From positions 2,792,515 to 2,856,514 of the forward strand of contig NW_024037060.1 of NCBI RefSeq assembly GCF_015706575.1: a DNA stretch of 64,000 bases, read 5' to 3'. The notes below the pieces were generated by a model, which was not told the origin of the DNA, made no database searches, and was given only the letters and a program-made list of their open reading frames with translations. Origin of the DNA: Patiria miniata (Eukaryota). The translations under genes and the position numbers were made by a program. Positions 5,678 to 63,176 of this stretch are shown one piece after another; the stretch's first letter is position 1, and every line of letters begins with the position of its first letter.

Positions 5678-5732
5678 TTTGTTAACCATCTTGATAATAA
5701 GCGATTCAAAACATACAGAACATAGTTCTAAC

Positions 5733-30224: not shown

Positions 30225-30860
30225 GACAGCCAGTACGCTGGCAAGCCAAACTACCAGGGGAGACAGCCAGTCAGTCAGTCAGGCAGCCAGCCAGCTAGCC
30301 AACCAGCCAGCCAGCAACCAACCAACCAGCCAGCCAGCCAGCCAGCCATGCATCCGGGGAGTCGGCTAGCCAGCCAGCCAGCCTGCCTGCCAGCCTGCTG
30401 CAAGCCAGTGAGCTAGCCACCGAACTGATGACCAACTCTTTACCAACTATACCAGCTAAGTCAGCTAGCCTGCGAGCTAGCCAATTACCAGCCAAAGTGT
30501 CACCCAGCAAGCAACCAATTAGCCAGCCAGCCAACAAACCAACCTTTCAGTTAGCCGCCAGGCAACCGGCCAACCAGCCTGCCAGTCTTAAAAAGCCCGA
30601 TTGTCATTATCAAGCCAACCATATAGCAAACCTGCCAACCAGTCATCCTCAAGCCAGCAGCCAGCCAACCAGCCGCCAAACCAGCGAGCAACAAGCCAAC
30701 AAGCCCGCTCACCAGCCAACGAGCCAGCCTTACGGTCAGCCAGCCAGCCAGCCTTCCAGCCAGCCTTCCAACAAGTCAGCGAGCCTGCCAATCAACCATA
30801 CCAGCCATCCAGCCAGCCAGTCGTCGTGCCATCCAGCCAGCAACCATCTGAACAACCAAC
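30225..30860. repeat. An imperfect tetranucleotide microsatellite (CCAG/CCAA)n of about 640 bp.
   Basis: The sequence shows continuous CCAGCCAGCCAACC-type periodicity. The supplied ORFs here, rich in P, A, S and Q, are repeat artefacts. Confidence 0.9.
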
Positions 30861-33486
30861 CCGCGGTGACCCAATACGCTTACATCACTAGAGTCGAACT
30901 TCTGGCCCGAGTAATGACAACATCATGATTGCAATTTAGGTTAATATCTAACCCACATAATCCTTGTCATCGTATTAATTGCTTTTGCAGTATTAACTGG
31001 ATCAGTTCTGATGTTATGGCCTTTGCTCCTGTCAGTGGAGTGGGGGAGATTGCAACGGGATGGTGATTTTAAAAGCAAAATCGGAAAGTTGAGTAATAGA
31101 AGCACAATCGGGACGGTGAAAATGGGTTAAATGGGACGAAGATTCGATTTTGCAACGGGCAAACTAAACCCTGGCCACGAGCCTGCTTTTATGTACTAAC
31201 CAAAGACAAGTGAGTTTTTTCCCTTCGATACTTCGATGTCGATATTCGGGATGTCAAAATGATTACTGTTCAGAAAAAAGAACAATGAATCGATTAGTTA
31301 AACCCCCCCCCCAAAAAAAAACACTGCCCAAAACTGTAGCAGTGGATTTTAGCAAAAGACGACACTTTTTTCGATATTCATGTCAGTACTGGTCAGACAT
31401 AAATTAGAAATAAACTACGGTTCATAGGCCCTTTGCAATTAGCGGGGGGGGGGGGATAGCAAATTGTATAAGGACAATAACCAATTGTAGATAAAACAAA
31501 ACAATTAGTTAGTTGTAAAAAAAAACGCTAATAACCTTCGGTCCAAATGGTTTAATAAGCTTCTGTAGATATTAAATATGCAGAAAACATCAAATTCATT
31601 ACCAACCCCAAACATTAACAGTACGTACTGCTCCATACAGCTCTTACACTTCAATAAATCAGGAACAAATCCTGGTTCCAAAAGAATTTTTTTAAATGTG
31701 GTTAAAACACTGAACACTTGCGTGTTAAAACAGAAACTGTTGATTTTGGGCCGCGCTGAGCATTTTAGTTGACACAGCTGAAATTTAGTTCTTAGGAAAA
31801 CACAGGTTAAGGGCGCACAGTGAGGAACATCGAGTGGGATTACATAGTTGGCAGACATCAATGTCCAAGGAACATTCTAAGTGCTCAGTAGGACTATGTC
31901 AATTAGCTTGTAAATTCGCATTTGATTGCTGTCTTCAGGGTTCCACTGTCCTCATTAATTCATTTCTCGCGGAAAGATAACAACTTAATCTTTCTTGAAA
32001 GGATAATCTTACCGATGCTCAGGGAAAGCTTGGGCAAGGTGTATGTCTGTATAAGGCCTTCCTGCATGCAGTGATCATAGGTTTTTGCACGACGTGGTTG
32101 ACTGAACTTTCATATTGTCATTATGTCTAAACTGTACTACATGTATTTCATTAATACGGCATCGAGGTGATGATGATGATCATGGTGTGGATGATAGTGA
32201 TAACGGGGATTGTTTTGTGTGATTGGAAAGCGCGCACAATTTTTCGATCAGGATGATCACGAAAGAGATGATGTACGGTCGCCCATTTTTGGAAGTGATT
32301 TCGGCGGGTTGGAAGATTTGGGGCGTCTTGTCTAATCTTAATTCAATGTGAATTTGTCGTTTTTTTCTTGACTGATTTGCCCTTGACAATATTATTGTCA
32401 GTCTTTTCGAATAGGCAGTAAATCTATGGAACGCCTCCTGATTTAAATTCCGGTTCCAAGCACACTCAATTAATTATCAGCAAAATAACACTCGGTGTCC
32501 ATGTTGAAAGTGAATTATCTCCATAAAAATTAGTGAGTCGTTTCGTGAACTAATTGGCCAAAGCCGCGTTGTGGGTAATTAACGACGAGCCACAATTAAT
32601 CTGCCATTCTTTTATAGTGAGTGTAAACTCTCGGGAAAAACAACGAGCAATTAATTTATATAGAATGTCATTTCCGAAGATGAGTGTTAGGTAGATTTTT
32701 TTCAAAATCCTCCTTTTTCCCCACAATATCCTGGACTATATCAACTGGATTATTATCCTACTGGACACCATCTATCAATGAGGGCGCTATTCAAAACCGA
32801 ATTCATGGTCATTGACTGACAATCGCTGTACACGTTCCATCCAAGGGACATCAACAATAAACAGCCAATCGCGAAAAACAAGGTTTTTGCCACAAGTAAA
32901 TTAGTGTGGGATTAGTTTAACATAAAGTGTTTTTTTTTAATTTTTAATCATGGTTTCGTTATTTTCTGTGATTGCCAAATTTCCAGTGGGGGCGACTGAG
33001 GGGAGGGGGGGGGGGGGGGGCGACCATTTTTTTTTTTATGGGGGTGCCCCCCCCCCCGGCCCCCCGTAGCTACACTGCTGTTATACCCATAGCCCAATTT
33101 GATGACATCATCGTGTTTCACAGGTCACCGTACAAATAGATACCGTGTTTAAAATGTTGTTGTGATAGCGCCCGTTTGAAAGTCAAAAGGAAGAAAGGAA
33201 CTCCAGGCTAAGAAGAAATTGACGTAATTGTAATTCCCAAGGTTCACGGTTGTCTGCTCTTTAATATTGAGTCCAGTTAATTTGCCGAAACTCGTTTTAG
33301 GATATTATTGGCCATGGACATTAAAGGAAAACTAGTCGTTTTGTTTTGAGATCGAATAGAGGAAATTCAAATTGGCACTGAAGCCGACTGAAGCGGAGCG
33401 GGCTTCAGTGCCGTCTTTCGTAAAGAGGATTAAACAAAAAACAAAAAAAAGGTCTTCAATAAAACTTTGAGCACTGAGAGTCTCGG

Positions 33487-47264: not shown

Positions 47265-47378
47265 ATGAGAACCGTTGTTCTGTTGTGTTTGTGCCTCGTG
47301 CTGGTACTCGGCGATCCGCTGGCCCCACTCTACCACACTGAGGATCCTGTGCCCAACATGTACATCGTCAAAATAAAG
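47265..47378 (+). CDS. Subtilase gene coding exon 1: MRTVVLLCLCLVLVLGDPLAPLYHTEDPVPNMYIVKIK, a signal peptide and the start of the I9 propeptide. The exon itself begins at an acceptor at 47247, so a 5'UTR exon lies upstream.
   Basis: The ATG sits 18 nt downstream of the acceptor ttttctttcttgcag. The exon ends at a GC donor AAG|GCAAGT. The only GT alternatives break the frame or delete the YIVKIK propeptide motif. Confidence 0.8.
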
Positions 47379-47929
47379 GCAAGTCTTGAAAGTTTACATT
47401 TTTCTTAATCCCATTATTTTCTTAATTATTCGTTACCAGGTTGGTGATGGCAACGCCATTTGACCTGGTTTTTTTTTACGGTTAACATTCTGTAAAATTC
47501 TGTGAAGTATTTCAGACCTTCTCTATACCGTGTCCCGACTCCCGAAACTCTTGAATGTATGTAAACAAAACTACGTTCTGCTGCACAATATTTTCTTTAA
47601 GTCAAAGGAAGTAAAATGTTGTTGCTCTTGCAAAAGTATTTGTTACAATTAGAGAAAGCTTCACAGGAACAATGGCCGAACCCGGTGATCGTAACAATGA
47701 AACCATTAAATTGAATGTAGTTCATAAACTTCATACATAGCGGGTTTCAGTTGCCCCACATCGAAATGATACTCTCTGGTTTTACAGAAATTGCATGCGA
47801 TTTAATATTACCAGCAACCTTGATCCTACATCGAGGTTGTATAAATAAGGTGGAGATTTCTCCCTCACTATCGGCAATGCAACACTTTTTACAAAGTGAT
47901 GCCTTAACTTGAATTATCTTTCATAACAG

Positions 47930-48067
47930 GACAGTGTCGAAGCGGCTTTTCGAGAGGGCAGATTGCAAGAGCAGATGGGAAGGGCTGGACTTCTAACTGC
48001 TGTCAGGAGAACTACTCGTTTCTTGAACACTGTTGTTATGGAAATCCCGGAAGATAAAGTGGACTCG
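47930..48067 (+). CDS. Subtilase exon 2: DSVEAAFREGRLQEQMGRAGLLTAVRRTTRFLNTVVMEIPEDKVDS, the inhibitor_I9 propeptide.
   Basis: This is the only open frame. The acceptor is tcataacag and the donor is GTGAGC. Confidence 0.85.
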
Positions 48068-48230
48068 GTGAGCTGACTTTGCTACTTTTAACGCGATAAA
48101 TACCGAACTGGATGGGTTTTTTTTCGCCGAATGTAATTGTACTTGAGCGGGTAGATTAAAACAATTGAAACGGAGTTTTTTTTACATAGAAAGGGTGCAT
48201 AACTTGTATCGTTAGCTGCGCAAGGGCGGA

Positions 48231-48524
48231 TCCAGAGGGAAGCAAAAGGGGCCTTACGCCCTCCCCCCCCCCCCAAAAGTACAAATTATTTTTTTAAAGT
48301 GACATCGCAATAAAGGCCACCACTGCTTCCCCACAATCTTTTCCTCAAAAAAATTAGTTAAAGTGGTCAGAAATTGCTTCAGATCGCACTACAGGGCATT
48401 TAGAATCCAAAAGATATTTGGGGACCCCGCACCGTCATTTTTTTGTACCAACTTTTTTGGGGGACGACAATTTTTTTGGGCCCGAAAAAAAATTGTATTT
48501 TGGATCCGCCCTTGTATAGCTGCG
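48231..48524 (-). mobile_element. A hAT-like MITE copy B, inverted relative to copy A. Its TIR is CAAGGGCGGATCCA. An 8-bp target-site duplication TAGCTGCG is intact on both flanks. It sits in subtilase intron 2.
   Basis: The terminal 14-bp inverted repeats are exact. The flanks read …cgtTAGCTGCG|caaggg… and …cccttg|taTAGCTGCGcg…. An 8-bp TSD is characteristic of the hAT superfamily. Confidence 0.75.
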
Positions 48525-48959
48525 CGCCGGCAGATTTGAATTTGGTTGAATAAGTTGCCGCGGAGATGGAGGTCTCTATCAACGAGATAATCAAATCCCA
48601 GTCTTGTCAATATTGGCAACGCTACCCGCCAGTACCCGGTAAATTCCGAGCATACCTCACGCGCCCGCTTTGGGCCAAGACTATACGTCCGAATTTGTCT
48701 ATGGCTTGAAATTATAGACATACTGAAGCGGCTGACCAGAGATACTGACCGAATGCAAGTAGGCTAATAGTTAATCTAACATTTGGTCGGATCTTGGGGA
48801 TTTTCTAACTTTAGTGGACCTTGACGAATATTACCTTCCTCAAAATAAAATATTTTCAACATCAACTTGAGCATTAGTTCTACTTGTGTAATTTTTTTCT
48901 CTGAGAAGTGAGCTTCATAATGGATTTTCAATGGGCTGGATTTTCCGTGAATGATTCAG

Positions 48960-49089
48960 GTTCGAGCCATCGACGGTGTGGAGTACGTCGAGCAAGATGG
49001 CATTGTGCACGCAACTGAGGTGGGATCCTGGGGACTAGACCGCATTGACCAGAGAGACCTACCACTCGATGGAAACTACTCTGCACCAG
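48960..49089 (+). CDS. Subtilase exon 3: VRAIDGVEYVEQDGIVHATEVGSWGLDRIDQRDLPLDGNYSAP, the propeptide end and the mature N-terminus.
   Basis: It contains the proteinase-K family signature SWGLDRIDQR. The acceptor is tgattcag and the donor is GTACTG. Confidence 0.9.
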
Positions 49090-49431
49090 GTACTGAGCAT
49101 GACTTTTTGTGTGTGAACAAAAGAGGGGGCGTTGTTTAGCCTGAACACGTGGCGTGTATTCTTCGCTGGTTTTGTTCGCTTTTGACCATTTCGTGTAGGC
49201 TAAGTAAAAATTCGAAGGTCACTAAAATAATTTGGGAACTCACATTTTCCGGCACTTAGCCGGTTTTGTGCATACGGAATTGTTTCGGTGATACATATTC
49301 TACACTACAACGTTTCGAACATTTTTTTTTATTAGAGACATTCGCACGTCGGCATTAGTGCGCAAACATTAAGTTGGGTCACGAATCATACAGTCGACCA
49401 GTGGTGCTCGAACTTGCTTCTTGCTTGACAG

Positions 49432-49686
49432 GTGACGGTGAGGGCGTGCGTGTTTACGTGATTGACACGGGAGTTCGCCACACCCACGAGGAGTTCGAGG
49501 GCCGAGCCCACCTCGGGTACGACGTGTTCGATGACGGCTGGGGCGGCGGCGACTGCGGCGGGCACGGCACACACTGCGCCGGTACCATCGGTGGCAAGAC
49601 GTACGGTGTGGCCAAGAAGGTTACCATCTGGGCTGTCCGGGTACTGGACTGCTCCGGGTCGGGGACTTGGTCCGGTGTCCAAGAAG
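49432..49686 (+). CDS. Subtilase exon 4: [55 protein letters not shown]…[16 protein letters not shown]. It contains the catalytic Asp (DTG) and His (HGTHCAG).
   Basis: The exon is GC3-rich, about 68% GC. It ends at a second GC donor GAAG|GCAAGT. Alignment to proteinase K (GSGQYSTIIAGMDFV versus [15 protein letters not shown]) requires this donor. Confidence 0.85.
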
Positions 49687-50037
49687 GCAAGTTGGTTTCA
49701 GACAAGTATTTGAAAACGTCCTTTCTACCGATTATTCTACAGGGAGGCTCCTGAACTATAGAGTGTGTCAGCTCATGCCAAAAATGCATACCCCCGATCC
49801 AAGGCTCAGTCTGTGCGATCCTGTGACCTAGAAGTTGATGTACCAATTAGCTAAGACCAAACCTGGCCAGCTATGAGCAGGTCATTCAACCATCCACATC
49901 CTGATTACTGAATGTTTTTCTTCTATGCATGTTCGTGCGATCAGACCATGCACAGGCCATATGCTTAAGCAAGTAGACCCATCGCCTGGCTATTGTATTA
50001 CCAAATTTGATTGTGAATTCTTGATCTTGAACTCCAG

Positions 50038-50225
50038 GTATGGACTGGGTCATAGGTCATGCAGCTACTGCCCCTTCGGTTGCCTCCATGTCCCTGGGGG
50101 GAGGTAAGGTAGAATCCATCAACAATGCCGTGACCAGGATGCATAACGCGGGGATAACCGTGGTTGTATCGGCGGGAAATGACAACCGACCGGCATGCAT
50201 GAACTCACCGGCTAGCGCTCCCAAA
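50038..50225 (+). CDS. Subtilase exon 5: MDWVIGHAATAPSVASMSLGGGKVESINNAVTRMHNAGITVVVSAGNDNRPACMNSPASAPK. It contains the oxyanion-hole Asn.
   Basis: The acceptor is aactccag and the donor is GTGAGT. The exon is collinear with proteinase K …SLSLGGG…AAGNNNADA.NYSPAS.P. Confidence 0.9.
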
Positions 50226-50764
50226 GTGAGTATAGAACAAGACCGCGTCTGAACATTAACTGAGACAAAATGACGTCATGCTTTGTTGACATATTTGTTC
50301 TCTTATTGGTGTTTGGTGGCTCTCGTTCCCCACTTGGCTCTCAAAAGAAAGCGCGCTTGTAAACAAATCGTGAGGTCATTTTGTCTCTGAGCTGTGAAAA
50401 TTGGCTACGCCTGCATGATTACTGAATCTACTTTCCACATCAACTGCCGGCCGTAACCCAGTGTGTTTTGCCGCCGTGCAGACTACTCACACAAAACAGC
50501 GGAGACATCGCGTGCACCACGCGGAAAACCAGACCCCTGCATACACGGGTGCAGAATTAGCTATGGCGTTCATTATGTATTCAGGGCATTTATTGATTAA
50601 AAAAAATCATAATGCGGAAAAGCCCTATGTTCTGTTGCAAACAGACATAGACCTCTAGTTATGTCCTTCAACGCTGGCGCTCTTTATCAGCTTGCTCTTA
50701 ATCGAGGGGTACTTCGGCACGAAGTCTATGTCACAATTTTAACCCCACCTCTGTTTTCTTATAA

Positions 50765-50956
<192 letters not shown>

Positions 50957-51287
50957 TAGACCGCTACTACAACTCCCTCCCCTTGCACACAAAAGTACCC
51001 GTACCCGAAGCTCAACTATGACCAGTGAATCCGGGATACAAATGCCGAGGAGGGGGGGGGGGAGGAATATGCCCTACTTTTTCACAAGGAGGATGGGTCA
51101 TAAGATCTTCCCTACCATTTGCATTACAAAAAAAAATCATAAAGAATTCTCTTTGTGTGAGTATACCTTGTGATGGATTCCTAGACGTCATGGAAGCTTA
51201 AGAAGTGCCATTAATAATGAGAAAAATATCATACCTTTGCTGTCTAATAACCATCCAATTCTTACCTACATTTCCACCTTCTGACAG

Positions 51288-51424
51288 GTGTAGCAGCAAT
51301 GGAGCTTGGTAAGAACAACAACCTGGATCCCTCAGATGTCGCCAACATTCTCATCAAAAGGGCCGTCAAGGACAGGGTGGCCAATAAGGGATCGGACTCG
51401 GTTAACCTTCTTCTCAGGGTTTAA
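51288..51424 (+). CDS. Subtilase exon 7: VAAMELGKNNNLDPSDVANILIKRAVKDRVANKGSDSVNLLLRV*, ending at the stop TAA at 51422-51424. There is no C-terminal extension domain.
   Basis: The acceptor is ttctgacag. The frame joins exon 6 to give PHVSGVAAMELGK, which matches subtilase PHVAGAAALL. Confidence 0.85.
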
Positions 51425-53575: not shown

Positions 53576-54801
53576 TTAATTTTTAGTTTTAATGTTCTGA
53601 TAATGTTTCTCGTTAGGGGTGGCATTTCCTTCTTTTTGTCCAACGTTCTCGTTCGCCACGACATCAGTATACTCACCTCCTTTGGTTCCCAAGATCGTCT
53701 GGTAGACGGCCTCGCCTGTTGTGTCTTTCGTTGTTGGTGTCAGATCAGTGTAGTCGGCTTCCGAGTGCAGCTCGGTGTCTTTGGCTGTCGGGTCGGTTGT
53801 CTTGGAGCTCCTGCGCCGCCGCAGTCTGGTGATCAGGAAGACAATGACAAGGAGTGAGACGATGAGGATGAGGAGCACCACACTGACGACGATCCACGCC
53901 ACGGGAGGTGCACCGGTACCAGGACCGTCGGTCATCAGCAGGGGGAGTTGCCGGCCGGTTGTCGGTTGTGGGGGAGGTTGGCGTGGGGTTGTCACAACAG
54001 CGGGTTGTGGAATGGTTGCCGGTCGTGTTTCCTCAGTAGTAAAGGGAAGCTTGATTGATGCCCCCACGGTCGTCGTACTCAGCACACGCAGCGGGCCGAT
54101 CGTGCAGGAACTCTCCCGACCAGGAAAGGATGACGCCGAAGTCACCTTGCACACGAAAGTGGCGTCCTGGTGGTCGGCAGTCACAGACAGCTCTGACGAG
54201 ATCACACGTTCATTCTCATCTCCCGAGTGTCTCCACTGCACATTGACGGTTGATGTGATGACGTCTACCCGCACTAGCGGAGAACCGGGGTCTGTAGTGC
54301 AATTCATCGGGAGAGTTGTCCCTTGCTGAACGGTGTAGCTTCCATCAGGGGCACAGATCGGGTAGGGATCGGCCGGAAAGTAGCGCACTGTCAGATAAGG
54401 AACGCCCCGCCCCGTCACTCGACTGCGATTCTGCCAGATTTCACAGTTAAACAATCGGTCATCTCTAGTGACGTTTGTGATGATGAGGACACCGACTGCC
54501 AAATCGGATGGGTAATACTCAAGATAGTTTCATATCGTGGGTTTAGACTGACGCCGTTCATCGTTAGAGGTTGCCAGTTGAATCCCCCTTCGTTTCTGTG
54601 CCAATTAATAGTGTAATCATAACCGGCCATAAGTCCGGATGCGTTGCATGCGAGGATAACCGTGTCTCCCTCGGTCGGCTGTGCGTCGGCCGGTCGATCC
54701 ACCGCAGTGGATAACACCACTTGTGAACCAACTTTGTGGGAACACCAACATGCGCATAGCAGCAGCAGGAACGTTGACTTGGATGTCAATCTGTGATCCA
54801 T
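53576..54801 (-). CDS. Intronless Ig-superfamily type I membrane receptor-like gene. It encodes a signal peptide (MDHRLTSKSTFLLLLCACWCSHKVGS), a V-set Ig domain, a C2/I-set Ig domain, a Pro/Thr-rich stalk, a TM helix (VAWIVVSVVLLILIVSLLVIVFLI) and a cytoplasmic tail with four Tyr motifs (DYTDL, VYQTIL, EYTDV, HYQNI). The reading frame is broken by an apparent 1-nt deletion near 54525-54535 inside the V domain, which makes this either a pseudogene or an assembly error.
   Basis: The ATG at 54801-54799 sits in a gaaaATGG context. Frame A (MDHR…NPRYE) and frame B (YLEYYPSDLAVGVLIITNVTRDDRLFNCEIW… to a stop at 53576) together give a canonical V domain (C…W…D..LFNC). Frame A alone terminates at about 54415. 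Frame B has no usable start. No spliced solution exists because the two frames abut. Confidence 0.6.
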
Positions 54802-54886
54802 TTTCGATCGTTCCCCTGTCAAAATTTGTCCCAAACGAGCTAGCTGTCCAGATAATGTTTGCAGAGAATGTGAGGAGTCGAACTTG

Positions 54887-54904: not shown

Positions 54905-56808
54905 CTCACACCGTGAAGCTTGCAATTAAATTTTGGTAAGGAATGTGTATTATTATTGGAATAATAGGAATAATGCCTCGATCGGATCTATATTGAACTT
55001 TCATTTTTGGTGTTCATGCAGATACCTTTTTTTTTTTTTTATCGTGCGCCACACTCGGGTGGTTTTGTGTAGAACAACGGCGCAATTTCCGTCATTCTGA
55101 TATTCTACGGAGGGAAATGCTGATTGCTTTTGGGGGAAGAATTTGGGGGAATTGACGAGAATTACCAAAGCCCTTTAACAGAGCCGCATGAAAGGCATGG
55201 TTCCCGGAATGCGGAACCGGCGTATGCCGAGGGCCTCAGTGCTGTATTTTGTTGAGAGGAATTGAAAAAAAAGATCATCAATTCATACAATGGCTTAGCA
55301 CTGAAAGCCTCGGTTTCAGTGTAATTTGGGATTTGTCTATTCTAGAGTTCGGTTTAGGTTTTGAAGTTTCCTTACATTTTGGGCCCGTGAGCAGTACCAC
55401 CTAATTTTCTCTATCTATCTTGTTCAAAAACGGACCGTCTCGTGTGCCATTTATTGCGTTTTGATGTTCAAATTTCCATCTTCACAATACAAGTCAATTT
55501 TCAACCATAAACAAAACCATCAAATTTTACCAAAGTAGACGCCTCCGAAACAAGGCGAGGACGCGTCGAAGGCAACGGTGACTTTGTTTGCTTATTAGTT
55601 TGACAGATGACCTGAGTAGTACTGCTGACGGACGTGGTGAAACTAGTGCTCTCTTGTCCTTTTGTGTTTTTCCTGGGAAACTGAACAGGATACACAAAAT
55701 CATTGTACTTTTAGTCCATTGTGATCTTACTTGCACGCCAATATATAGCGATGTTTTCTGAAAACTGGCGTCAGCTCGATCACCACTAACAATGCAAGTT
55801 GTTCAATGGCGCCACTGGGGAAATATGGAAATTATTGTGTGTGGTATGCAGGCTAATAACAGTTACCCATCCTTGGTCTATGCATTTCTCCATGAGATGA
55901 AAAGCAGCGCGCAGGAACTATCGATCATCAAGTTTTTCAAAACACCGTGTTGCGCAAAAGGAGGAACTGTCGGATCATTGATACATGTTTGTAGGCCTAC
56001 ACATTTAAAAGTGTAGGCCTACTTTGCTATATCCTGACAGGGCACTATGTCCAATGTGTTTTTTTTTAGACAAGAATTACCCCCAAACGTATATAAAATA
56101 ATTATTTTGTTTTGCATTTGGTTATTTTAACCCATTGACAAGCTACCAGGTAAAGTACATCACACCCCCCCCCTAAGAAAAAGGGGGAGAAGAAGAGGAA
56201 GGAGAAAAAGAAATTAATTTTAAAGTCGAAGCTTGTACACCATGGATGTTTAGACCAATCCTTCAATTCAAGGGCAAAAGCATTGTGCTAGCTATTGTTC
56301 AGATAATCTGTCATGGGCAGTTGCTTTGTACAATAACGAGCACGGTTTCTCCATTGAAGGGGGCCTCCGTCTAGAACAAGCTCCTTCTTTGTTTTGCTCG
56401 TTAATGTACAATTGTTAAAGGAAAAAGGGCGCTGAAAGGTGTTCAGAAAATGTCAACAGGGAGGCCGAAAATGAAGCTCACTTTTAATATCACTTGACCA
56501 AACAAGTAGACAATGCCAAAGTTAATTTAAAAAAAGTTATCATCGCATGATCCTTTTACTAAACCGCCGACAGAGGGCGTGTTTTATCTAGGCCGTATTC
56601 ACTCATGTTGTTTATACTCATTGTACTTATAGAGCTCTGTGTGGTAAATCCCTTCCTCTTATTTATTTTATTTTATAAGGTGCACTGAATGAGCTTTTGA
56701 GTCATGTAATTTTCATGAATGTTTGGCATGTTTCGGTTTATTTGATGACAGTTTGAAGGCCCTGACTTCGTCATATTTAACGGGGTAGACGGTGTAAGAT
56801 TGTAGACT

Positions 56809-56910: not shown

Positions 56911-58487
56911 GTGAGAAGTGGATGATCATGATGGTTAATATTTTGGTAATCCTTACCTTCTTTAGGCCCCCTTCCTATATAAGGTTAAAAGACTCACCAA
57001 AACAACTGACTAATATAAATGACACTCAAAAGTGACATTCTGATATTTCTTGAAACATTGGAACAGTTGGCAATGACAGTTGACACCTTCTTAAATATCA
57101 GCAGGTTTAATTTTGTAGAATGAGGGCGGGGCTTTGATTTATGAGGGGTTAAAGACGACAATGACGATTAGAATATATTTTAAAAAGCAAGATGGCAAAC
57201 TGCAAAAAAGGTAGGAAAGTCACATTTTCTTTTAAAGTTTGGAAAGATTTCCATATACATGTACGAAGTTCACTAATTTTCCTCTGTATTGACTAACAAG
57301 CCCCAGATAGCAATTTCATGTCATCAAAGTCAATTTGAGCAGTGAGAAAATACAAATTACAAGCAGTTTCTTAGAAAACACTTAGAATTTTTCAGTCCAA
57401 TCTCATAGGGTTTGTACACAGGGTGTTGAGTGAACTTCGTATATGGAAATCTTTCTGAAAGTGTTTTCAAAATTACAAATAACATGAGTTTATCTGAAGA
57501 AAAAAAGACTGCTTTAGCCTGCAAAAGTCACTTTGGTACTGGACAGTCATCTGCAAAAGTCAGTTTTGAACAGAACTCGTAAAAATAGAGGTGTCTTAAA
57601 GATAAGGATTACCAATATTTTATTATCATATAGAGTTCCAAATTGAAATTGACCCTTTTCCTCTATTTCCTGTGTCAAAAATAAAATTAATTGAATCTAG
57701 TAATAGGGCTAGCCTGAGGAACTTGGGCCCAACTTATCCCCTTTTTAACATTTGGACACGGTCTGGCGATAGTACTACTACTAGTACTAGTACTTCGGTG
57801 GTAGGGTCCAAGTTCAATGTTAGACATGTATCATAATGGCGTTTAGAATAATTAACGAGCCAATCATTTGCCAACAAAAACATCAGATTTCAACTTCAAA
57901 TTGGCCACAAAATTACTTTGTAGTATACGCCACCTGAGATACAAGTAGAGATCGATGATTAAGATCGAGGTACTAAGGATTACTTAGGATCCGGATGAAC
58001 AATTAAATTTCCCGTTGAATTCCGAGAGCTCCCCTCGCGTTCATGGACACGTTACACTCCTGGCTCGTTTGAACGACGCGTTGTGGTCGTGCCCAGCGTC
58101 CATAAATGATCCGGAGTGCGATTCCATTATCGCACACGATGCATCGATTATGATTTAATGTGTAGTCGGAATATCGTTTGAGAACATGCAGTTCGAAGCA
58201 CAATAGGGAGTCAGGAAGGGCAGCTTGAACTGGTTTCCGGTCATAATTTTGACCGCACTGATCATGAAGGGAACCAGTTCAAGCAGATTTTTAAGAAATC
58301 ACATCAAATTAAATGAAACAACGGTGGTACAAAACTACCTGACAATGTTAATGATTTACTTTTTGCATTACTTTTCAACTTATAATAAATTTAAATGATA
58401 TTAAATTAAGTATAAAGTGCCAGAAACTGTTTAGTGGTATCACACTAACAGTCCCACATTTATTTTCTGATACTCCCAACTTTCTAG

Positions 58488-58573
58488 ATAATATTCGTTG
58501 AACCTGTGGAGTGTTTATCTGAACTCTCTGCCCAGCATGGCTTTGAACTGGACGAAGTCCACAACATCAACGG
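58488..58573 (+). CDS. GDA: GDA exon 2: IIFVEPVECLSELSAQHGFELDEVHNING.
   Basis: The acceptor is tttctag and the donor is GTAAGG. The sequence aligns to GDA IVFLEEASQQEKLAKEW…ELSHHE. Confidence 0.8.
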
Positions 58574-58585
58574 GTAAGGAAACTA

Positions 58586-58720
58586 TGTCACCCCTCCCCC
58601 CCCCCAAAAAAAAAACATTCTTACAAACGGAGACCATGCCCCCCCCCCAAAAAAAGTCCACTTTTTTTTAAGTGACATCGCAAAAAAAGGCAGCGACTGC
58701 GTACACCACCCATGAGTAAT
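58586..58720. mobile_element. A fragment of the same hAT-like MITE family (…CCCCCCAAAA…AAGTGACATCGCAAAAAAAGGC…) in GDA intron 2.
   Basis: It shares the AAAGTGACATCGCAATAAAGGCCACCACTGC block with 48290-48330. Confidence 0.5.
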
Positions 58721-58842
58721 ATACATAATAGCTCCCAAAAAAAATCATTCAGGTTTATAAACTCTTTATTTCTTTTTAATGCACAGCACTAGTCCAAGAT
58801 GCTGGTTTCTGAAAACTATAATTTTTGTTTTGGCTATTTCAG

Positions 58843-59014
58843 TTGTTTCTTGATGCCTGGTTTTGTCGACACCCACATCCATGCCCCTCAGTATGTCTAC
58901 ACCGGCACAGCCATGGGCCTACCCCTCCTGGAGTGGCTAGACAAGTACACCTTCCCCGTCGAAGCCAAGTTTGACGATCTCAAATTCGCCACCGATGCTT
59001 ATCACAAAGTTGTG
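58843..59014 (+). CDS. GDA: GDA exon 3: (G)CFLMPGFVDTHIHAPQYVYTGTAMGLPLLEWLDKYTFPVEAKFDDLKFATDAYHKVV. It carries the HxH metal-binding motif.
   Basis: The match to GDA is near-identical over FMPGLVDTHIHASQY…LPLLEWL.KYTFP.E. The acceptor is tatttcag and the donor is GTGAGT. Confidence 0.9.
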
Positions 59015-59454
59015 GTGAGTTCTCTTAAGAACAGCCTAGAGCATATTTCTTTTCCTTAATAACTCCCAAAAGGGACCCTTTACCTGCCTATCAATCGAAC
59101 AGTGCACATTGACTGATTACTAGATCAAAACTTTTGGTCGGTGGCCCCGGTATTATTGGTCAAATTCGGTCACATGCGCCATGAGAAACAAAACGAGAAA
59201 GCAATTGTGGGCGGAGCGTATGACCAACATTTCTATAGAGTACCAAAGTGAATACATCACGTGCACAATTTTGTGTGTAAAAGACATTAGCGCGTGATTC
59301 AGCCCATGAACCAACACACGCGCGTACTCCATTCGTTTGCACTACATTTTCTGGTTCTAAATGACGTCAAACTTCAGTACTCTATTGCCTTGAATGCAAG
59401 CTGAAAGGAAGCCCTGCACCAACAAAACACAGCGGCGGGTTTTGTTGCATTGTG

Positions 59455-59995
59455 CAGTGTACTTGAAAAATGCCAGAGCAATTATAATTTTTTTCAAAAG
59501 AAGCTTTTTTTTCCAGCGCAGTTAAAATTTGTTCAAAACCAATTATTATTTTTTTCGAGAGCAATTTTTTTTTTGTCCAAAGCAAATATTATTTTTCCAG
59601 AGCGTTTTTTTTTTTCAAGAGCAATAAATTTTTATTCCCAGAGCAATAAATTTTGTTCGAGCAAAGTTACTTTCTATGGAAGCCTGTTTGTGCCAGGTTG
59701 TAAAAGTAAAAATTAAATTTCAAAATAGCATAATAGTTTTGCAAAAAAAATGCAATAGTTTTGCAAAATAATGCAATAGAACAAAATTGCTTTAAAATAA
59801 CTGCTCTGGAAAAAAAATAGCTGCTCTTGAAAAACAAACTGCTCTCGCAAAAAAATAGCTGCTCTGCAAAAAAAAAAAAACACCTGCTCTCCAAAAAAAA
59901 AATTGCTCTCAAAAAAAGGATTGCTCTCGAAAAAAAAAAAATTACTTTTGAAAAAAAAAAAAATTGCTCTCAACGAAAAAAGTGGTGGCACAAAC
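59455..59995. repeat. A large imperfect palindrome built from two mutually reverse-complementary tandem arrays. The left arm has about 8 copies of CCAGAGCAA followed by a T-run. The right arm has about 9 copies of TTGCTCTC followed by an A-run. It lies in GDA intron 3.
   Basis: The structure is seen directly. The centre lies near 59680-59700. The supplied K/F-rich ORFs 59450-60027 are artefacts. Confidence 0.8.
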
Positions 59996-60268
59996 GCAGG
60001 CTTTCGTATATAACATATGTTTAACAAATTAACAAAGTCGTTGGGGGCACTTTATCTACGGCTGTATAAATGCATGTGTGGCGTGTTTTGTCTAAAGTAA
60101 CAATGTTTATAATTCTTTCATTGGCCCAAAATGTGCCCACATTGTATGAATCTTAACAGCGAAGAAAATAAACATGATCTATTTGTTGATAAAATGTTGG
60201 GAGAAATAGGCACATGTAGGTTTTTGTTATCATTTATTTCTTTTGCTATTATGTTGTCTGATTTCTAG

Positions 60269-60356
60269 CACCGTACCCTTAAGAACGGAACCACCACAGC
60301 CTCCTACTTTGCAACCATTCACAAAGAGGCCTCCCTCAAGCTTGCAGAGATAGCCG
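60269..60356 (+). CDS. GDA: GDA exon 4: HRTLKNGTTTASYFATIHKEASLKLAEIA.
   Basis: The sequence matches GDA RRTLKNGTTTACYFATIH. The acceptor is atttctag and the donor is GTGAGT. Confidence 0.9.
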
Positions 60357-60823
60357 GTGAGTAAGGAGGCTTGATTGACTTGAGTCTTGGGTTATGGAAG
60401 TCTTGTCCCAAGACTCATATTTGGTGTTTTGCACCTCTAATGCAGCATGTCCCTGGAAAGCACAGACCACTTAGGATCATAGCCCAGATCACTAGGCATA
60501 ACCTAAGTATGGTGCTCCGACAATGCCAATGAGAAAAACAAAATGAAAATTTCCTGCATGCTGAAAAAAACAGTAGTGCACCACACAGTAAGATTATACA
60601 ATAGAGTAGTAATGTCCTGATAAAACCCATCTGTTTTCTCCCTCTGATCTGGATATTTTTAAAAATCAGTTGATTTACCTTATACTTCTTTCCCCTGTTA
60701 ATTAATGATTGCAACTGCAAAGGAAGGCCAATAGAGGAATTTCAAATTTTGGCCCTGTTGGTAAATTGCTTGTTTGGGATCTGTCTATATCAGTCATGCA
60801 GTGTGTTCTTCTTTCACATTCAG

Positions 60824-60926
60824 CAAAGTTTGGGCAACGAGCATTCATCGGCAAGGTGAACATGGATTCAAATTCACCCGATTTCTACGTTGAGACCACA
60901 GAGAATTCAATCCAAGACACGGAGTG
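60824..60926 (+). CDS. GDA: GDA exon 5: (A)KFGQRAFIGKVNMDSNSPDFYVETTENSIQDTE(W).
   Basis: The sequence matches GDA DKFGQRAFVGKVCMD…YKETTEESIKETE. The acceptor is cacattcag and the donor is GTAAGC. Confidence 0.85.
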
Positions 60927-61639
60927 GTAAGCCATCTATGATTCGCTTAGCAAAAATGCCCAGTTTACCAGCCAACAAATAAAGTGATCTACATTGTTCA
61001 ACCACTGGTTCCCAGCAGATTTATGTTTAGTAATTGGTTAGTAATTGGATTGTTTTCTTGGGATTTTTTGTAAACTCCCCCCCCCCCAAAGAAACGGGTA
61101 AACTAGTGCGTGTGCGCGCGCACTACTTCTGCAGGCAATTACAGATCAATTTTTCAGTTGCATGCGTACTACATTCCACAAAAGAGCTGCCATGAATTCG
61201 CAAACAAGTCTTGCAGCATCTTGTATATGCCACGGGATGAAATTTAAGAGTTTGGTTCGGAGTAATTATGGAAGGTTTGGAATGCACGCTGCATATATCA
61301 AGCAAAACAGGTGCGCGCACATGCCACACCTGCTACAAAAACAACGTTGCCAAAACAACGTTGCTTACGGTTCTAGTAATGGCAGTTTGTTGTGATGACG
61401 CCCTCTTGGCGGTGAATCCAATGTACACAACAACGTCCTGGCCCAAGACCAAGGATCACCCTTCCATGAATGGGCCAAATCCAGCCCATTGTTTAGACCA
61501 GATGCATAAAAAGACTTCCGGTGAATATCTTTCTGAATCAACTAAATAGAATTTTGTCTCTCTGGGACCAGCCTTATTAGGCTTGCCTGGTCTAGTTTTT
61601 ACTGCGTCATTCATTTTTTTCTTTGTCTGTTGAGAAAAG

Positions 61640-61775
61640 GTTTATCAAGCAAGTTCAGTCGATGAACAACCCTCTTGTCACACCCATCGTGACGCCCCGT
61701 TTCGCCGTCAGTTGCACCTTGGAACTCATGAAGAAACTGGCTGAGCTTGCTGAAAAGTACAACCTGCCAATTCAG
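61640..61775 (+). CDS. GDA: GDA exon 6: (W)FIKQVQSMNNPLVTPIVTPRFAVSCTLELMKKLAELAEKYNLPIQ.
   Basis: The sequence matches GDA RFVSEMLQKNYSRVKPIVTPRFSLSCSETLM.EL…HIQ. The acceptor is gagaaaag and the donor is GTAGTC. Confidence 0.85.
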
Positions 61776-62970
61776 GTAGTCCGTCAGTCCCCTGTTATTC
61801 CCTGAGTTTTTGCTTTTTCTTGGCAACAGCAAAGGGCTAAACTGCAACACTGCTGTTGTATTGCCGCCCAAGACCCAGAACTACGACTTTGAAAGATGGG
61901 GGGACTGTTGTTGTTAGAGCACCATCAGTGTTCCAAAAGTTACAGGCTTAATTTCCATTTAAGTGATTATCTTTGTAGAAATGCAAAAAATAGACGAACA
62001 GGTTATTCTTTTCAGTTTCTGCTTCAGTTTTAGCTGGACCCAAAGGTTAAGATAATAATTGTTGAGTCAGGTGTTAATGGGAATATACATCATTTGCTTT
62101 TGCTGTAATTTTCAGAAATGGATGGAATTGGGGAGTTGGAAATATATAGCAAATACAGTTACACTGACTTTTTTGAGGTTTTGGGTTCAAAAATGCTATA
62201 AAAACCAAGAAAAACAATCATTTTCCTGTAGTCTGGTTCCCTGACTCCATTTAAGAAGAAACAGAGCAGTTTACATACATTGGGGAATTGTAAGGTCAGG
62301 GAACCAGTCTAGCATGCTTCTACCCGTTCATAGGTGTGTAATCGATTGCAAACAAGTGCGATGGTCAACTGGGGCCAGTATTTGAAAAAAAAGCCAGTTT
62401 TTTCCAACGCTGGTCTGCCGATCAGCGTTGGAAATTGATACAAAAATACCACTTTTCTTGAAAATGACAGTATACCAGGTGCCATGATTTTACAGGATGC
62501 TTTACACTGTCATTCACTAACAGTCCAGCAAGGTATTTCAAAATGATTTGGTAGTTTTATTTTTTGATGTTTGCAAATGTTGTATTTTCCCTTTAATGTT
62601 AAGCCTAACCCCCAAAGGGCTGGTTGGGGGTCAAGTACCAAATACCACAGAATACTACATGTGCTGTGCACACTTGTATGGAAAGAAATTAATACTACAG
62701 GTTACTACTCAATGGTATTTTGTAGCATTGGGGGCTGTTAGGGTTAAGTGACAAGTCCTTCCCTTCGTAATACCGGACTGAAATTCCTTTCGTTCATTTT
62801 TTTCAGCATTTTTGTGCAAAGCTATCAAAAGAAGGTTGGTTACTGTGTGAGCTGGCTTTTGTTTATAAGAGCTCGGTTGATAGCTTTCACATCGTGATTG
62901 TTGAAGTACATCGCCGGCATGCATTTCTTGAAATATATCTATGGAGGCTAGATTTCTTTCCTTTTACTAG

Positions 62971-63078
62971 ACTCATCTCGATGAAAACGAGGGGGAAATC
63001 GCGTTGGTGAAGGAACTTTTCCCTCAATTTTCCAGCTACGCTAATGTCTACAGGGCTTGCGGCTTACTGACAAATCGG
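62971..63078 (+). CDS. GDA: GDA exon 7A: THLDENEGEIALVKELFPQFSSYANVYRACGLLTNR. It carries the HxxE catalytic motif. The exon is phase 0-0 and 108 nt long.
   Basis: The sequence aligns to GDA SHISENRDEVEAVKNLYPSYKNYTSVYDKNNLLTNK. The acceptor is cttttactag and the donor is GTAATT. Confidence 0.85.
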
Positions 63079-63176
63079 GTAATTATTTGAACAAGTTTGA
63101 CATTAGTCTGATTTCTTTTATTGTATTTTAATTCTTTCTTCGGCCTCTCCCTATTAACTCTCCCCCACATTATTAG

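What the first reader, a model, noticed from the sequence alone, without database searches (positions are those of the whole stretch)
53576..54801. Intronless Ig-superfamily receptor-like gene with four cytoplasmic Tyr motifs and a 1-nt frameshift inside the V domain
A complete receptor architecture sits in one uninterrupted stretch of DNA. It comprises a signal peptide, a V-set Ig domain, a C2-type Ig domain, a P/T-rich stalk, a TM helix and a tail with DYTDL, VYQTIL, EYTDV and HYQNI motifs, which are YxxL/I/V and resemble ITIM/ITAM half-sites. A single-base frame change near 54525-54535 separates NPRYE from YLEYYPSD…LFNC. Without a correction the product is a truncated secreted fragment of about 130 aa. 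Ig-superfamily receptors normally have one phase-1 exon per domain, so an intronless copy suggests a retrocopy. The frameshift lies in a GAAA homopolymer, so it is either real pseudogenisation or a homopolymer sequencing or assembly error.
Basis: partly seen in the sequence, partly recalled or inferred. Interest (0 to 1): 0.6.

Follow-up and report, generated by a model that had tools for sequence, protein, structure and literature searches.

The report
Sea-star single-exon Ig receptor, one frameshift
This is a bat-star (Patiria miniata) copy of a little-studied sea-star and brittle-star family of single-exon Ig-type membrane receptors; one missing base breaks it, and that loss is either very recent or an assembly error, so it is an ordinary gene, not a retro-pseudogene.

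Summary
On the minus strand, 54801..53576 encodes a signal peptide, a V-like Ig domain, a CD80-like C2 Ig domain, a P/T-rich stalk, a TM helix and a tail with four YxxL/I/V motifs. One missing base splits the reading frame.

The window is Patiria miniata: the neighbouring subtilase exons match an annotated P. miniata protein at 100%. The gene lies in conserved synteny (thioredoxin, subtilase, Ig gene on the opposite strand) with an Acanthaster planci orthologue whose V domain is unbroken.

It belongs to a family with 284 cluster representatives at E<=1e-3; every named genuine member I looked up is a sea-star or brittle-star protein. All five annotated members I could fetch, from four species, have a single-exon CDS. 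The family is distantly homologous to the intronless echinoderm KirrelL proteins. Lack of introns is therefore the family norm. I found no poly(A) tail and no target-site duplication, so a recent retrocopy is not supported.

dN/dS is about 0.3 on both sides of the shift. All family-invariant residues are kept, and the lineage shows no rate acceleration. The lesion is therefore very young or an artefact.

The missing base can only be bracketed to 54507-54532, not pinned to the AAA run. None of the four Tyr motifs fits the canonical ITIM or ITAM consensus. Reads, or the existing HiFi haplotypes, are needed to decide.

The parts
53576..54801 (-). Whole single-exon coding region, from the ATG at 54801 to the TAA at 53576-53578. 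It encodes 408 aa after a one-base repair.
   Evidence: sequence and frames; 51% identity to P. miniata LOC119742160 over 94% of its length; 57% identity to the A. planci orthologue.
54724..54801 (-). Signal peptide region, aa 1-26 (MDHRLTSKSTFLLLLCACWCSHKVGS).
   Evidence: Hydrophobic core. The N-terminus is conserved in the paralogue and the orthologue (LLLCACWC). Modelled as an N-terminal helix at aa 3-25. No dedicated signal-peptide predictor was available.
54398..54723 (-). V-like Ig domain, aa ~27-135. It holds Cys52, Trp67, Arg89, Asp115 and Cys120 and is interrupted by the frameshift.
   Evidence: Pfam ig at aa 44-124, 22.7 bits. Family near-invariant residues are kept. pLDDT 92-96.
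54507..54532 (-). Interval that must contain the missing base. The TGA of the downstream frame at 54530-54532 sets the upper bound.
   Evidence: There are 57 distinct stop-free repairs, all scoring 177-181 bits against the family HMM. MAFFT places the gap at 54517/54516. The AAA run is at 54528-54530.
54415..54417 (-). Premature TGA reached in the ATG frame. The uncorrected product is 128 aa.
54080..54391 (-). CD80-like C2-set Ig domain, aa 138-241. It holds the family motif YFPxxxYPxC (Cys150), Cys168, Cys218 and FPGxxxSCxIGP (Cys233).
   Evidence: Pfam C2-set_2 has E=0.1 for this protein, but 37 of 50 aligned family sequences match it. Invariant columns are listed. pLDDT 93-98.
53903..54076 (-). 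P/T/S-rich stalk, aa 243-300.
   Evidence: 47% P+T+S. Low pLDDT, so probably disordered.
53825..53902 (-). Transmembrane helix, aa 301-326, followed by RLRRRR.
   Evidence: The only internal 19-aa windows with Kyte-Doolittle mean above 1.6. Helix at 300-334 in the model. Trp303 is near-invariant in the family.
53579..53824 (-). Cytoplasmic tail, aa 327-408.
53741..53755 (-). DYTDL motif (Y351). This is the first of the two family-wide conserved tail tyrosines.
   Evidence: The Y351 column is at least 90% conserved across 50 family members.
53690..53707 (-). VYQTIL motif (Y367). This is the second family-wide conserved tail tyrosine.
   Evidence: The Y367 column is at least 90% conserved. AVYQT(I/V)L is identical in the paralogue and in the second A. 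planci paralogue, L001:26594-27772; the orthologue's tail here lies in an assembly gap.
53660..53674 (-). EYTDV motif (Y378). There is one copy here. The unit is repeated 6-7 times in the paralogue LOC119742160 and several times in A. planci.
53591..53605 (-). HYQNI motif (Y401), a C-terminal Y-x-N motif conserved in the sea-star members.
   Evidence: …HYQNVKGKK, DYQNVKSK, PYQNIKS, QYQNINN.

Best explanation
The locus is a Patiria miniata member of a family of single-exon type I membrane proteins; every named genuine member I looked up is from a sea star or a brittle star. Their layout is signal peptide, V-like Ig domain, CD80-like C2 Ig domain with an extra conserved disulfide-type Cys pair, mucin-like stalk, TM helix, and a tail with two conserved YxxL/I tyrosines. 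The sea-star members also carry a C-terminal YxN.

It is the positional orthologue of an Acanthaster planci gene with an unbroken V domain. It is a ~51-59%-identical paralogue of P. miniata LOC119742160, which lies on another scaffold. The family is a distant relative of the intronless echinoderm KirrelL/Kirrel2L adhesion proteins.

Inferred mechanism, not shown here: the V-C2 ectodomain makes cell-surface contacts in the manner of Kirrel/Rst/SYG-1 and nectins. The tail tyrosines, once phosphorylated, recruit SH2 adaptors (YxN is the Grb2-type motif) and/or act as YxxPhi sorting signals.

In this assembly one base is missing within 54507-54532. Translation from the ATG therefore gives a 128-aa secreted stub. 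Because the rest of the gene is fully intact, the loss happened very recently. I judge a real young or polymorphic null allele slightly more likely than a consensus error, at roughly 50:40. It is not a processed retro-pseudogene.
For: - Species and synteny: all seven exons of the neighbouring subtilase are 100% identical to P. miniata 'aqualysin-1-like'. The A. planci locus has the same order and orientation, and its Ig orthologue is one ORF from the ATG through the TM start with an unbroken V domain.
- Family: hmmsearch found 284 representatives at E<=1e-3 and 96 at E<=1e-10. Of the 20 looked up, 10 carried names: nine are from Asterias, Patiria, Acanthaster or Amphiura, and the tenth is a bacterial protein that matched only the tail repeat.
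- Single-exon CDS in 5 of 5 fetched members.
- Integrity: every invariant or near-invariant family residue is kept on both sides of the shift. dN/dS to the A. planci orthologue is 0.32 upstream and 0.29 downstream, with dS about 1.1. The relative-rate test gives 14 vs 13 unique changes, so there is no acceleration. The AF2 model is confident across the repaired site.
- Relatives: hhalign against KirrelL/Kirrel2L gives 99.2% probability and E 6.5e-20 over V+C2, with the YPxC...RxC pair shared. The best TM-scores in the fold search are Rst D1-D2, nectin-4 and SYG-1.
- Leaning towards a real lesion: the longest base run in the bracket is only 3 nt, and P. miniata is described as highly polymorphic.
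Against: - No reads, transcripts or second assembly could be examined, so real lesion versus consensus error is unresolved.
- No protein from this locus is in the protein collection. This fits either a pseudogene call or no call at all and is not decisive.
- Function is inferred only from architecture and distant homology. No member of the family has been studied experimentally as far as my literature searches show.
- The Tyr motifs do not fit the canonical ITIM, ITSM or ITAM consensus.
- The P. miniata paralogue's gene structure could not be fetched.
Confidence: 0.6

Rival explanations
1. Assembly or consensus error. The real genome has one more base in 54507-54532, and the gene is an intact, functional single-exon receptor gene.
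For: - This is the only lesion in 1,226 nt.
- dN/dS is about 0.3 on both sides of it.
- All conserved residues are kept, and the repaired protein folds confidently.
- An AAA run lies inside the bracket.
Against: - The bracket has no homopolymer longer than 3 nt, and the orthologue alignment puts the gap outside the AAA run.
- No frameshift is seen in the roughly 1.9 kb of neighbouring coding sequence that I could check against proteins. That sample is small.
Confidence: 0.4
2. Recent processed retrocopy (retro-pseudogene) of an intron-containing Ig-receptor parent.
For: - The CDS has no introns.
- A paralogue exists on another scaffold.
- The authors of the KirrelL paper raise retrotransposition as a possible origin of the related KirrelL gene.
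Against: - Position and orientation are conserved next to the subtilase gene in A. planci.
- All five annotated family members fetched, from four species, have a single-exon CDS; the two unannotated A. planci ORFs at the syntenic locus are also uninterrupted as far as they are assembled, including a brittle-star member among the five.
- There is no poly(A) tract downstream. The only flanking direct repeat has one copy inside the conserved KHYQNI codons.
- Identity to the only known paralogue is just 51-59%.
Confidence: 0.04
3. An old, dead unitary pseudogene drifting neutrally.
For: The frameshift truncates the protein before most of the V domain. No protein model for the locus is in the databases.
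Against: - The downstream frame has 317 stop-free codons.
- dN/dS is 0.29 downstream of the lesion, and there is no rate acceleration.
- My rough estimate is about 160 disabling events per unit of neutral divergence over 1.2 kb. With no second lesion, the age is then bounded at about 2% divergence, against a dS of about 1.1 to Acanthaster. This is an inference.
Confidence: 0.03
4. Programmed -1 ribosomal frameshifting or transcriptional slippage restores the frame in vivo.
For: The required shift is -1.
Against: - There is no X XXY YYZ slippery heptamer in frame within the bracket, by direct reading.
- The longest A run is 3 nt, far too short for transcriptional slippage.
- Orthologues and paralogues are encoded in one frame.
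Confidence: 0.01

Closest known systems
Acanthaster planci unannotated ORF at DF978686.1 (L001:21435-22974, minus strand), the positional orthologue
   Same: It has the same neighbours and orientation (thioredoxin-like gene, S8 subtilase, then the Ig gene on the opposite strand). It is 57% identical over aa 2-251. It shares the signal peptide, V, C2, stalk, TM start and the EYTDV / DYQNVKSK tail, and it is encoded without introns.
   Different: Its V domain is not frameshifted. The TM and tail are interrupted by an assembly gap. It has several EYTDV repeats and is not annotated as a gene in that record.
Patiria miniata LOC119742160 (XP_038074127.1 / XP_038074128.1, 'uncharacterized protein', Ig-like domain-containing)
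   Same: It is the closest protein in the databases: 51% identity over 94% of the query, with the same architecture, AVYQT(V/I)L, EYTDV and HYQN(V/I)K.
   Different: It lies on a different scaffold (41.6 Mb versus 8.3 Mb). It has 6-7 tail repeats of 30 aa and lacks the second canonical Cys of the C2 domain. Its gene structure could not be retrieved.
Echinoderm KirrelL / Kirrel2L Ig-TM proteins (Ettensohn & Dey 2017; Khor & Ettensohn 2022, PMC8903837)
   Same: They are echinoderm-specific type I Ig-TM proteins encoded by intronless genes. Profile-profile homology over Ig1-Ig2 is 99.2% probability, E 6.5e-20. They share the extra Cys pair (YPxC ... RxC) and the 'TS.A(F/L)..' C2 signature.
   Different: KirrelL proteins have three Ig domains and an unrelated, longer tail. 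They are present in all echinoderm classes and have a demonstrated role in skeletogenic-cell fusion. The present family has two Ig domains, a mucin-like stalk and a YxxL...YxxL tail, and its named members are all from sea stars or brittle stars.
Kirrel/Neph - Roughest - SYG-1 and nectin/Necl adhesion receptors
   Same: These are the best structural superpositions of the V-C2 pair: Rst D1-D2 with TM 0.60, nectin-4 D1-D2 with 0.55, and SYG-1 D1-D2. They have a CD80-like C2-set second domain.
   Different: Sequence identity is only 15-18%. They have more Ig domains, multi-exon genes, and PDZ- or afadin-binding tails rather than YxxL motifs.
Vertebrate ITIM/ITAM-bearing IgSF immunoreceptors (e.g. 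SIRP, CD300, KIR-type receptors). This is an analogy only.
   Same: They are type I proteins with one or two Ig domains and short tails with several YxxL/I/V motifs. They form lineage-specific multigene families that commonly contain young pseudogenes (general knowledge).
   Different: No specific homology was detected. None of the four motifs here fits (S/I/V/L)xYxx(I/V/L), TxYxx(V/I) or YxxL/I-x6-8-YxxL/I.

Membership tests
Immunoglobulin superfamily | An Ig-fold domain recognised by curated profiles, with the Cys...Trp...Cys core | tested here: met
   Pfam ig scores 22.7 bits against a cutoff of 21.8. Cys52/Trp67/Cys120 and Cys168/Cys218 are present. The AF2 model shows two beta-sandwich domains with pLDDT above 90. 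More than 1,600 Foldseek matches to Ig proteins.
V-set Ig domain (Pfam PF07686) | Score above the Pfam gathering threshold | tested here: inconclusive
   This protein alone scores 13.1 bits against a cutoff of 26. 40 of 50 aligned family sequences match at E<=1e-3. The V-type Arg89/Asp115 pair and the D-x-x-x-(Y/F)-x-C motif are present.
CD80-like C2-set domain (Pfam PF08205) | Score above the Pfam gathering threshold | tested here: inconclusive
   This protein alone scores 13.1 bits against a cutoff of 21. 37 of 50 aligned family sequences match at E<=1e-3.
Sea-star and brittle-star single-exon V-C2 Ig-TM family (defined here; database members are 'uncharacterized protein') | Significant match to a family profile built without the query, and retention of the invariant Cys120, Cys150, Cys168, Cys233 and Gly236 | tested here: met
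   177-181 bits for every possible repair. All invariant and near-invariant columns are conserved.
Sea-star and brittle-star single-exon V-C2 Ig-TM family | Whole CDS on one exon | tested here: met
   The window CDS is contiguous. Gene length equals 3 x (aa + 1) for P0125, P0140, P0123 and P0146.
Sea-star and brittle-star single-exon V-C2 Ig-TM family | Two conserved tail tyrosines (consensus ..Y.EL... ..YM.L) | tested here: met
   Y351 and Y367 align to the columns that are at least 90% conserved.
Echinoderm KirrelL / Kirrel2L | Homology of Ig1-Ig2 | tested here: met
   hhalign gives 99.2% probability and E 6.5e-20 over 189 columns. Single-stretch scores are 40-73 bits.
Echinoderm KirrelL / Kirrel2L | Three Ig domains and the KirrelL-type cytoplasmic domain | tested here: not met
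   There are only two Ig domains before the stalk. There is no alignment beyond Ig2. It is therefore a relative, not a member.
Echinoderm KirrelL / Kirrel2L | Expression in skeletogenic cells and a role in cell fusion | not testable with these tools
   No expression data were accessible.
Processed retrocopy / retro-pseudogene | 3' poly(A) tract and flanking target-site duplications | tested here: not met
   There is no A-rich tract downstream of the stop; the nearest A9 run is 1.5 kb away. The only flanking repeat (53593-53608 and 54845-54860) overlaps conserved codons.
Processed retrocopy / retro-pseudogene | Insertion at a new, non-syntenic site | tested here: not met
   The position next to the subtilase gene is shared with A. 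planci.
Processed retrocopy / retro-pseudogene | Existence of an intron-containing parental gene | not testable with these tools
   The P. miniata genome is not in the contig index. Every family member that could be fetched is single-exon.
ITIM-bearing receptors | (S/I/V/L)-x-Y-x-x-(I/V/L) | tested here: not met
   The residues at Y-2 are A, A, G and K.
ITAM-bearing receptors | YxxL/I - x6-8 - YxxL/I | tested here: not met
   From Y351 to Y367 the spacer is 12 residues. From Y367 to Y378 the spacer is 7 residues, but the second motif ends in V (YTDV). It is ITAM-like at best.
Programmed -1 frameshift sites | An X XXY YYZ slippery heptamer in the zero frame at the shift site | tested here: not met
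   Direct reading of 54507-54537.

The most novel reading that the evidence does not exclude
The family may be an uncharacterised, rapidly diversifying immune-type or allorecognition receptor repertoire found so far only in sea stars and brittle stars. It is single-exon and related to KirrelL. It would signal through a non-canonical long-spacer ITAM-like pair (YxxL-x9-12-YxxL/I) plus a Grb2-type YxN. The frameshifted P. miniata copy would then be a segregating null allele, which is the presence/absence polymorphism typical of such repertoires.
Probability: 0.15. Interest if true: 0.55.

Novelty: new member of a known kind. Interest (0 to 1): 0.3.

Why it matters
- For genome annotation, this locus should be treated as a family member with a single repairable lesion, not as a retro-pseudogene. 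The A. planci orthologue is missing from the gene calls of that record.
- The sea-star and brittle-star V-C2 family, with at least 96 cluster representatives at E<=1e-10 and a large share from the brittle star among those looked up, appears to have no functional study.
- The family is related to KirrelL, the one echinoderm single-exon Ig gene with a known role, in cell fusion. That relation gives a concrete starting hypothesis of cell-cell recognition with phosphotyrosine signalling.
- By itself the finding is ordinary: a lineage-specific Ig gene with one indel.

Tried and rejected
- Paralogue DNA: I tried to fetch the genomic DNA of LOC119742160 (both isoforms) and of the P. miniata subtilase. 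None is on record, so the paralogue's exon structure and a same-species dN/dS could not be obtained.
- Independent assemblies: exact look-ups of the two window ORFs in public assemblies, including Logan, found nothing. There was therefore no independent read-derived copy.
- Second copy: tblastn found no paralogue in the window and no Ig gene within 10 kb after the subtilase in Asterias rubens.
- Profile search: the word-indexed search with the family alignment returned only 4 hits and did not help with taxon range. Taxon range came from cluster look-ups instead.
- Pinpointing the missing base: scoring every possible insertion against the family HMM, the orthologue and the paralogue gave differences too small to decide.
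- Literature: searches for sea-star IgSF/ITIM receptors or intronless echinoderm Ig receptors found nothing on this family. Only KirrelL turned up.
- Rejected ideas: a micro-intron spanning the shift, because the alignment to the orthologue and paralogue is ungapped and the fold is confident; programmed frameshifting, because there is no slippery site; and the 16-nt flanking repeat as a target-site duplication, because one copy lies inside conserved codons.
Full report
**1. What is in the sequence**

The minus strand from 54801 to 53576 was read and translated. An ATG at 54801 sits in a good Kozak context (gaaaATGg). It opens a frame that runs 128 codons to a TGA at 54415-54417. The -1 frame is open from 54529 to a TAA at 53576-53578, which is 317 codons.

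Adding one base joins the two frames into a 408-aa protein. Its parts are:
- a hydrophobic N-terminus;
- Cys52/Cys120 and Cys168/Cys218;
- four N-glycosylation sequons in the ectodomain;
- a stalk (aa 243-300) with 47% P+T+S;
- a single hydrophobic segment at aa 301-326, followed by RLRRRR;
- an 82-aa tail with Y351 (DYTDL), Y367 (VYQTIL), Y378 (EYTDV) and Y401 (HYQNI).

Pfam 'ig' passes its cutoff (22.7 against 21.8 bits). V-set and C2-set_2 are sub-threshold for this protein alone. AlphaFold2, run with a 50-sequence family alignment, gives two beta-sandwich domains with pLDDT above 90 across aa 40-240, including the repaired site, and a TM helix at 300-334.

**2. Where the window comes from and what surrounds the gene**

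The window is eukaryotic DNA (41% GC, CpG o/e 0.78). A chimeric query made of neighbouring exons hit 'aqualysin-1-like [Patiria miniata]' at 100% identity. All seven exons of that 377-aa protein are found at 47265-51424 (+) without a mismatch. The window is therefore the bat star Patiria miniata.

The other genes in the window are:
- a type II membrane protein with HYR, Frizzled-CRD and CUB exons, on the minus strand at about 0.9-9.8 kb;
- a thioredoxin/PDI-like gene on the plus strand at about 33.6-34.5 kb;
- guanine deaminase on the plus strand from about 58.5 kb to the end of the window.

The Ig gene lies 2.2 kb downstream of the subtilase gene, on the opposite strand.

**3. Relatives**

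The only word-index hit for the repaired protein was P. miniata LOC119742160, with 51% identity over 94% of the query. It is carried on a 41.6-Mb scaffold, whereas the window's subtilase is on an 8.3-Mb scaffold. It is therefore a paralogue.

The Acanthaster planci subtilase locus could be fetched (L001). It has the same order: thioredoxin, subtilase, then a homologue on the opposite strand at L001:21435-22974. That homologue is 57% identical over aa 2-251. It is one uninterrupted ORF from the ATG through the signal peptide, V, C2, stalk and the start of the TM, and its V domain has no frameshift. An assembly gap then interrupts the tail. blastn shows the two loci are colinear.

A second A. 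planci paralogue lies at L001:26594-27772. It has the same signal peptide, TM and tail, but mucin-like repeats replace the Ig domains. It too is a single ORF. The equivalent Asterias rubens locus has no such gene within 10 kb.

**4. The family**

An exhaustive profile search found 284 cluster representatives at E<=1e-3 and 96 at E<=1e-10. I looked up 20 of them, and 10 carried names. Nine are 'uncharacterized' or loosely named proteins of Asterias rubens, A. amurensis, P. miniata, Acanthaster planci and the brittle star Amphiura filiformis. The tenth is a bacterial protein that matched only the tail repeat.

In a 50-sequence alignment, Cys120, Cys150, Cys168, Cys233 and Gly236 are invariant. 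Cys52, Arg89, Asp115, the YFP...P.C linker, Cys218, Trp303 and the tail tyrosines Y351 and Y367 are at least 90% conserved. The window protein keeps the invariant residues, and it keeps the near-invariant ones apart from a conservative Phe for Tyr at position 118, on both sides of the shift. Of the 50 aligned sequences (the repaired window protein included), 47 match Ig_3, 40 match V-set and 37 match the CD80-like C2-set_2.

**5. Intron status**

For every annotated member whose locus could be fetched, the gene length is exactly 3 x (aa + 1) and the DNA translates to the protein:

| Member | Species | Length |
|---|---|---|
| LOC117302524 | A. rubens | 1,281 bp for 426 aa |
| P0140 | Amphiura filiformis | 1,224 bp for 407 aa |
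| P0123 | A. amurensis | 1,272 bp for 423 aa, with a tandem neighbour |
| LOC110991148 | A. planci | 2,868 bp for 955 aa |

The fifth annotated member is the second A. planci paralogue at L001:26594-27772. Its ORF of 392 codons plus a stop fills the 1,179-bp gene range exactly, although the record's called product is 357 aa. The unannotated A. planci orthologue is also uninterrupted up to its assembly gap.

A literature search led to KirrelL, an echinoderm Ig-TM protein needed for fusion of skeletogenic cells. [quoted passage not shown] I took the KirrelL and Kirrel2L sequences from that paper's source data. hhalign links the two alignments with 99.2% probability and E 6.5e-20 over the V+C2 pair, including the extra Cys pair. 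The family HMM scores KirrelL proteins at 40-73 bits in one stretch. For comparison, it scores human Kirrel1 at 40 bits, and about 24 bits per stretch for the top PDB hit.

Foldseek's best superpositions by TM-score are Roughest D1-D2 (0.60), nectin-4 D1-D2 (0.55) and SYG-1 D1-D2.

The family is thus a two-Ig relative of KirrelL but not a member. It lacks the third Ig domain and the KirrelL tail.

**6. Retrocopy test**

- There is no A-rich tract after the stop. The nearest A9 run is 1.5 kb away.
- The only direct repeat bracketing the CDS is 14 of 16 nt, at 53593-53608 and 54845-54860. One copy lies inside the conserved KHYQNI codons, so I judge it to be chance.
- Synteny with A. planci rules out a recent insertion.
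- A single retroposition at the root of the whole Kirrel-like echinoderm group is not excluded, but it has no bearing on whether this copy is dead.

**7. Age and reality of the lesion**

Nei-Gojobori dN/dS against the A. planci orthologue is 0.30 overall (dS about 1.2). It is 0.32 upstream and 0.29 downstream of the shift.

Tajima relative-rate tests show no acceleration of the window lineage. The counts of unique changes are 14 vs 13 with A. rubens as outgroup, and 19 vs 32 with the paralogue as outgroup.

There is no second stop or indel in 1,226 nt. I estimate roughly 160 disabling events per unit of neutral divergence over 1.2 kb. This is my own rough estimate and an inference. The absence of a second lesion then bounds the age at about 2% divergence. 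[quoted passage not shown]

The missing base cannot be pinned down. The upstream limit is the TGA of the downstream frame at 54530-54532. Every one-base insertion between 54507 and 54532 that avoids a stop gives a protein scoring 177-181 bits against a family HMM built without the window sequence. There are 57 distinct such proteins. MAFFT places the gap at 54517/54516, not in the AAA run at 54528-54530. No base run in the bracket exceeds 3 nt. That weakens, but does not remove, the homopolymer-error explanation.

No reads or second assembly could be reached. Look-ups of the window ORFs in public assemblies found nothing. I put a real young or segregating null allele at about 0.5 and a consensus error at about 0.4.

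**8. The tyrosine motifs**

Y351 and Y367 are the family-wide conserved pair. The consensus is ..Y.EL, then a 9-12-residue spacer, then ..YM.L. EYTDV is a unit repeated 6-7 times in the paralogue. The C-terminal YQN(I/V) is conserved among the sea-star members.

None of the four motifs fits the ITIM consensus, because the Y-2 residues are A, A, G and K. None fits the ITSM consensus. Nor is the strict ITAM consensus met:
- Y351 to Y367 has a 12-residue spacer.
- Y367 to Y378 has the right 7-residue spacer but ends in V.

From general knowledge, YxN is the Grb2-SH2 consensus and YxxPhi is also the AP-2 sorting signal. Signalling or sorting roles are therefore inferred, not shown.

**9. Verdict**

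The retrocopy interpretation is not supported.

The locus is an ordinary member of an uncharacterised, lineage-specific, single-exon Ig receptor family, and it carries one very young or artefactual 1-nt deletion. The decisive check is to inspect the read pile-ups and the existing HiFi diploid assembly and Iso-Seq data for P. miniata.

Noticed in passing
window 47265-51424 (+): This is a seven-exon S8 subtilase gene ('aqualysin-1-like'). After echinoderm and hemichordate orthologues, its nearest relatives are bacterial S8 peptidases (Gemmatimonadota, Streptomyces), at 64-69% identity over one 87-aa exon. That is as close as the sea-urchin and hemichordate copies. It may be an ancient bacterial-type gene in the echinoderm-hemichordate lineage.
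   Followed up: partly
L001:26594-27772 (-), Acanthaster planci: This second tandem paralogue has the same signal peptide, TM and Tyr-motif tail, but about five mucin-like S/T/P repeats of ~37 aa replace the two Ig domains. It is a single 392-codon ORF, whereas the record's called product is 357 aa.
   Followed up: partly
L001:21435-22974 (-), Acanthaster planci: The positional orthologue of the window gene is not among the called genes of that record. Its TM/tail region contains a ~325-nt run of N. Just after the gap, the EYTDV repeats appear to change frame (…VVVDDGVY* versus EYTDVIADEEYTDV…).
   Followed up: no
P0001/P0002 (P. miniata LOC119742160): Isoforms X1 and X2 differ by exactly one 30-aa EYTDV-containing tail repeat. 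The paralogue has 6-7 such units against one in the window gene. It also has Phe in place of the second canonical Cys of the C2 domain.
   Followed up: no
L002 (Asterias rubens, LR699094.1): The thioredoxin-subtilase pair is conserved, but no Ig gene follows within 10 kb. A BTB/Kelch gene is there instead. The Ig gene at this position was seen in Patiria and Acanthaster (both order Valvatida) but not in Asterias.
   Followed up: partly
window 58467-63087 (+) and onward: Guanine deaminase exons run off the window end. An exact P. miniata guanine deaminase protein did not appear among the database hits, although the A. planci one (74% identical) did.
   Followed up: no
window ~900-9850 (-): These exons encode a TM segment (9457-9846), a HYR domain (7593-7922), a Frizzled cysteine-rich domain (1596-2159) and a CUB domain (911-1321). 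They look like one type II membrane protein gene of corin/MFRP-like layout. The assignment is from reading the ORFs only.
   Followed up: no
window 30299-30925 (+): A 209-codon open frame is made of low-complexity (Q/S)PA(S/N) repeats. It coincides with the strongest strand-composition bias in the window (AT skew 0.151 and GC skew -0.108 at 30-32 kb). It is probably a microsatellite-like tandem repeat rather than a gene.
   Followed up: no
window 53593-53608 and 54845-54860: An imperfect 16-nt direct repeat (14/16) brackets the CDS almost exactly. One copy lies within the conserved KHYQNI codons, so I judged it a chance match rather than a target-site duplication.
   Followed up: yes
window 55027-55040: A 14-nt A run on the gene's strand lies about 230 nt upstream of the ATG, within the 5' flank. 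It is not a retrocopy tail, because it is on the wrong side of the gene.
   Followed up: no
L005:6722-7272 (Asterias amurensis, CP134969.1): A second family member (424 aa) lies 2.4 kb downstream of P0123 on the same strand. At least some members are therefore arranged in tandem arrays.
   Followed up: no
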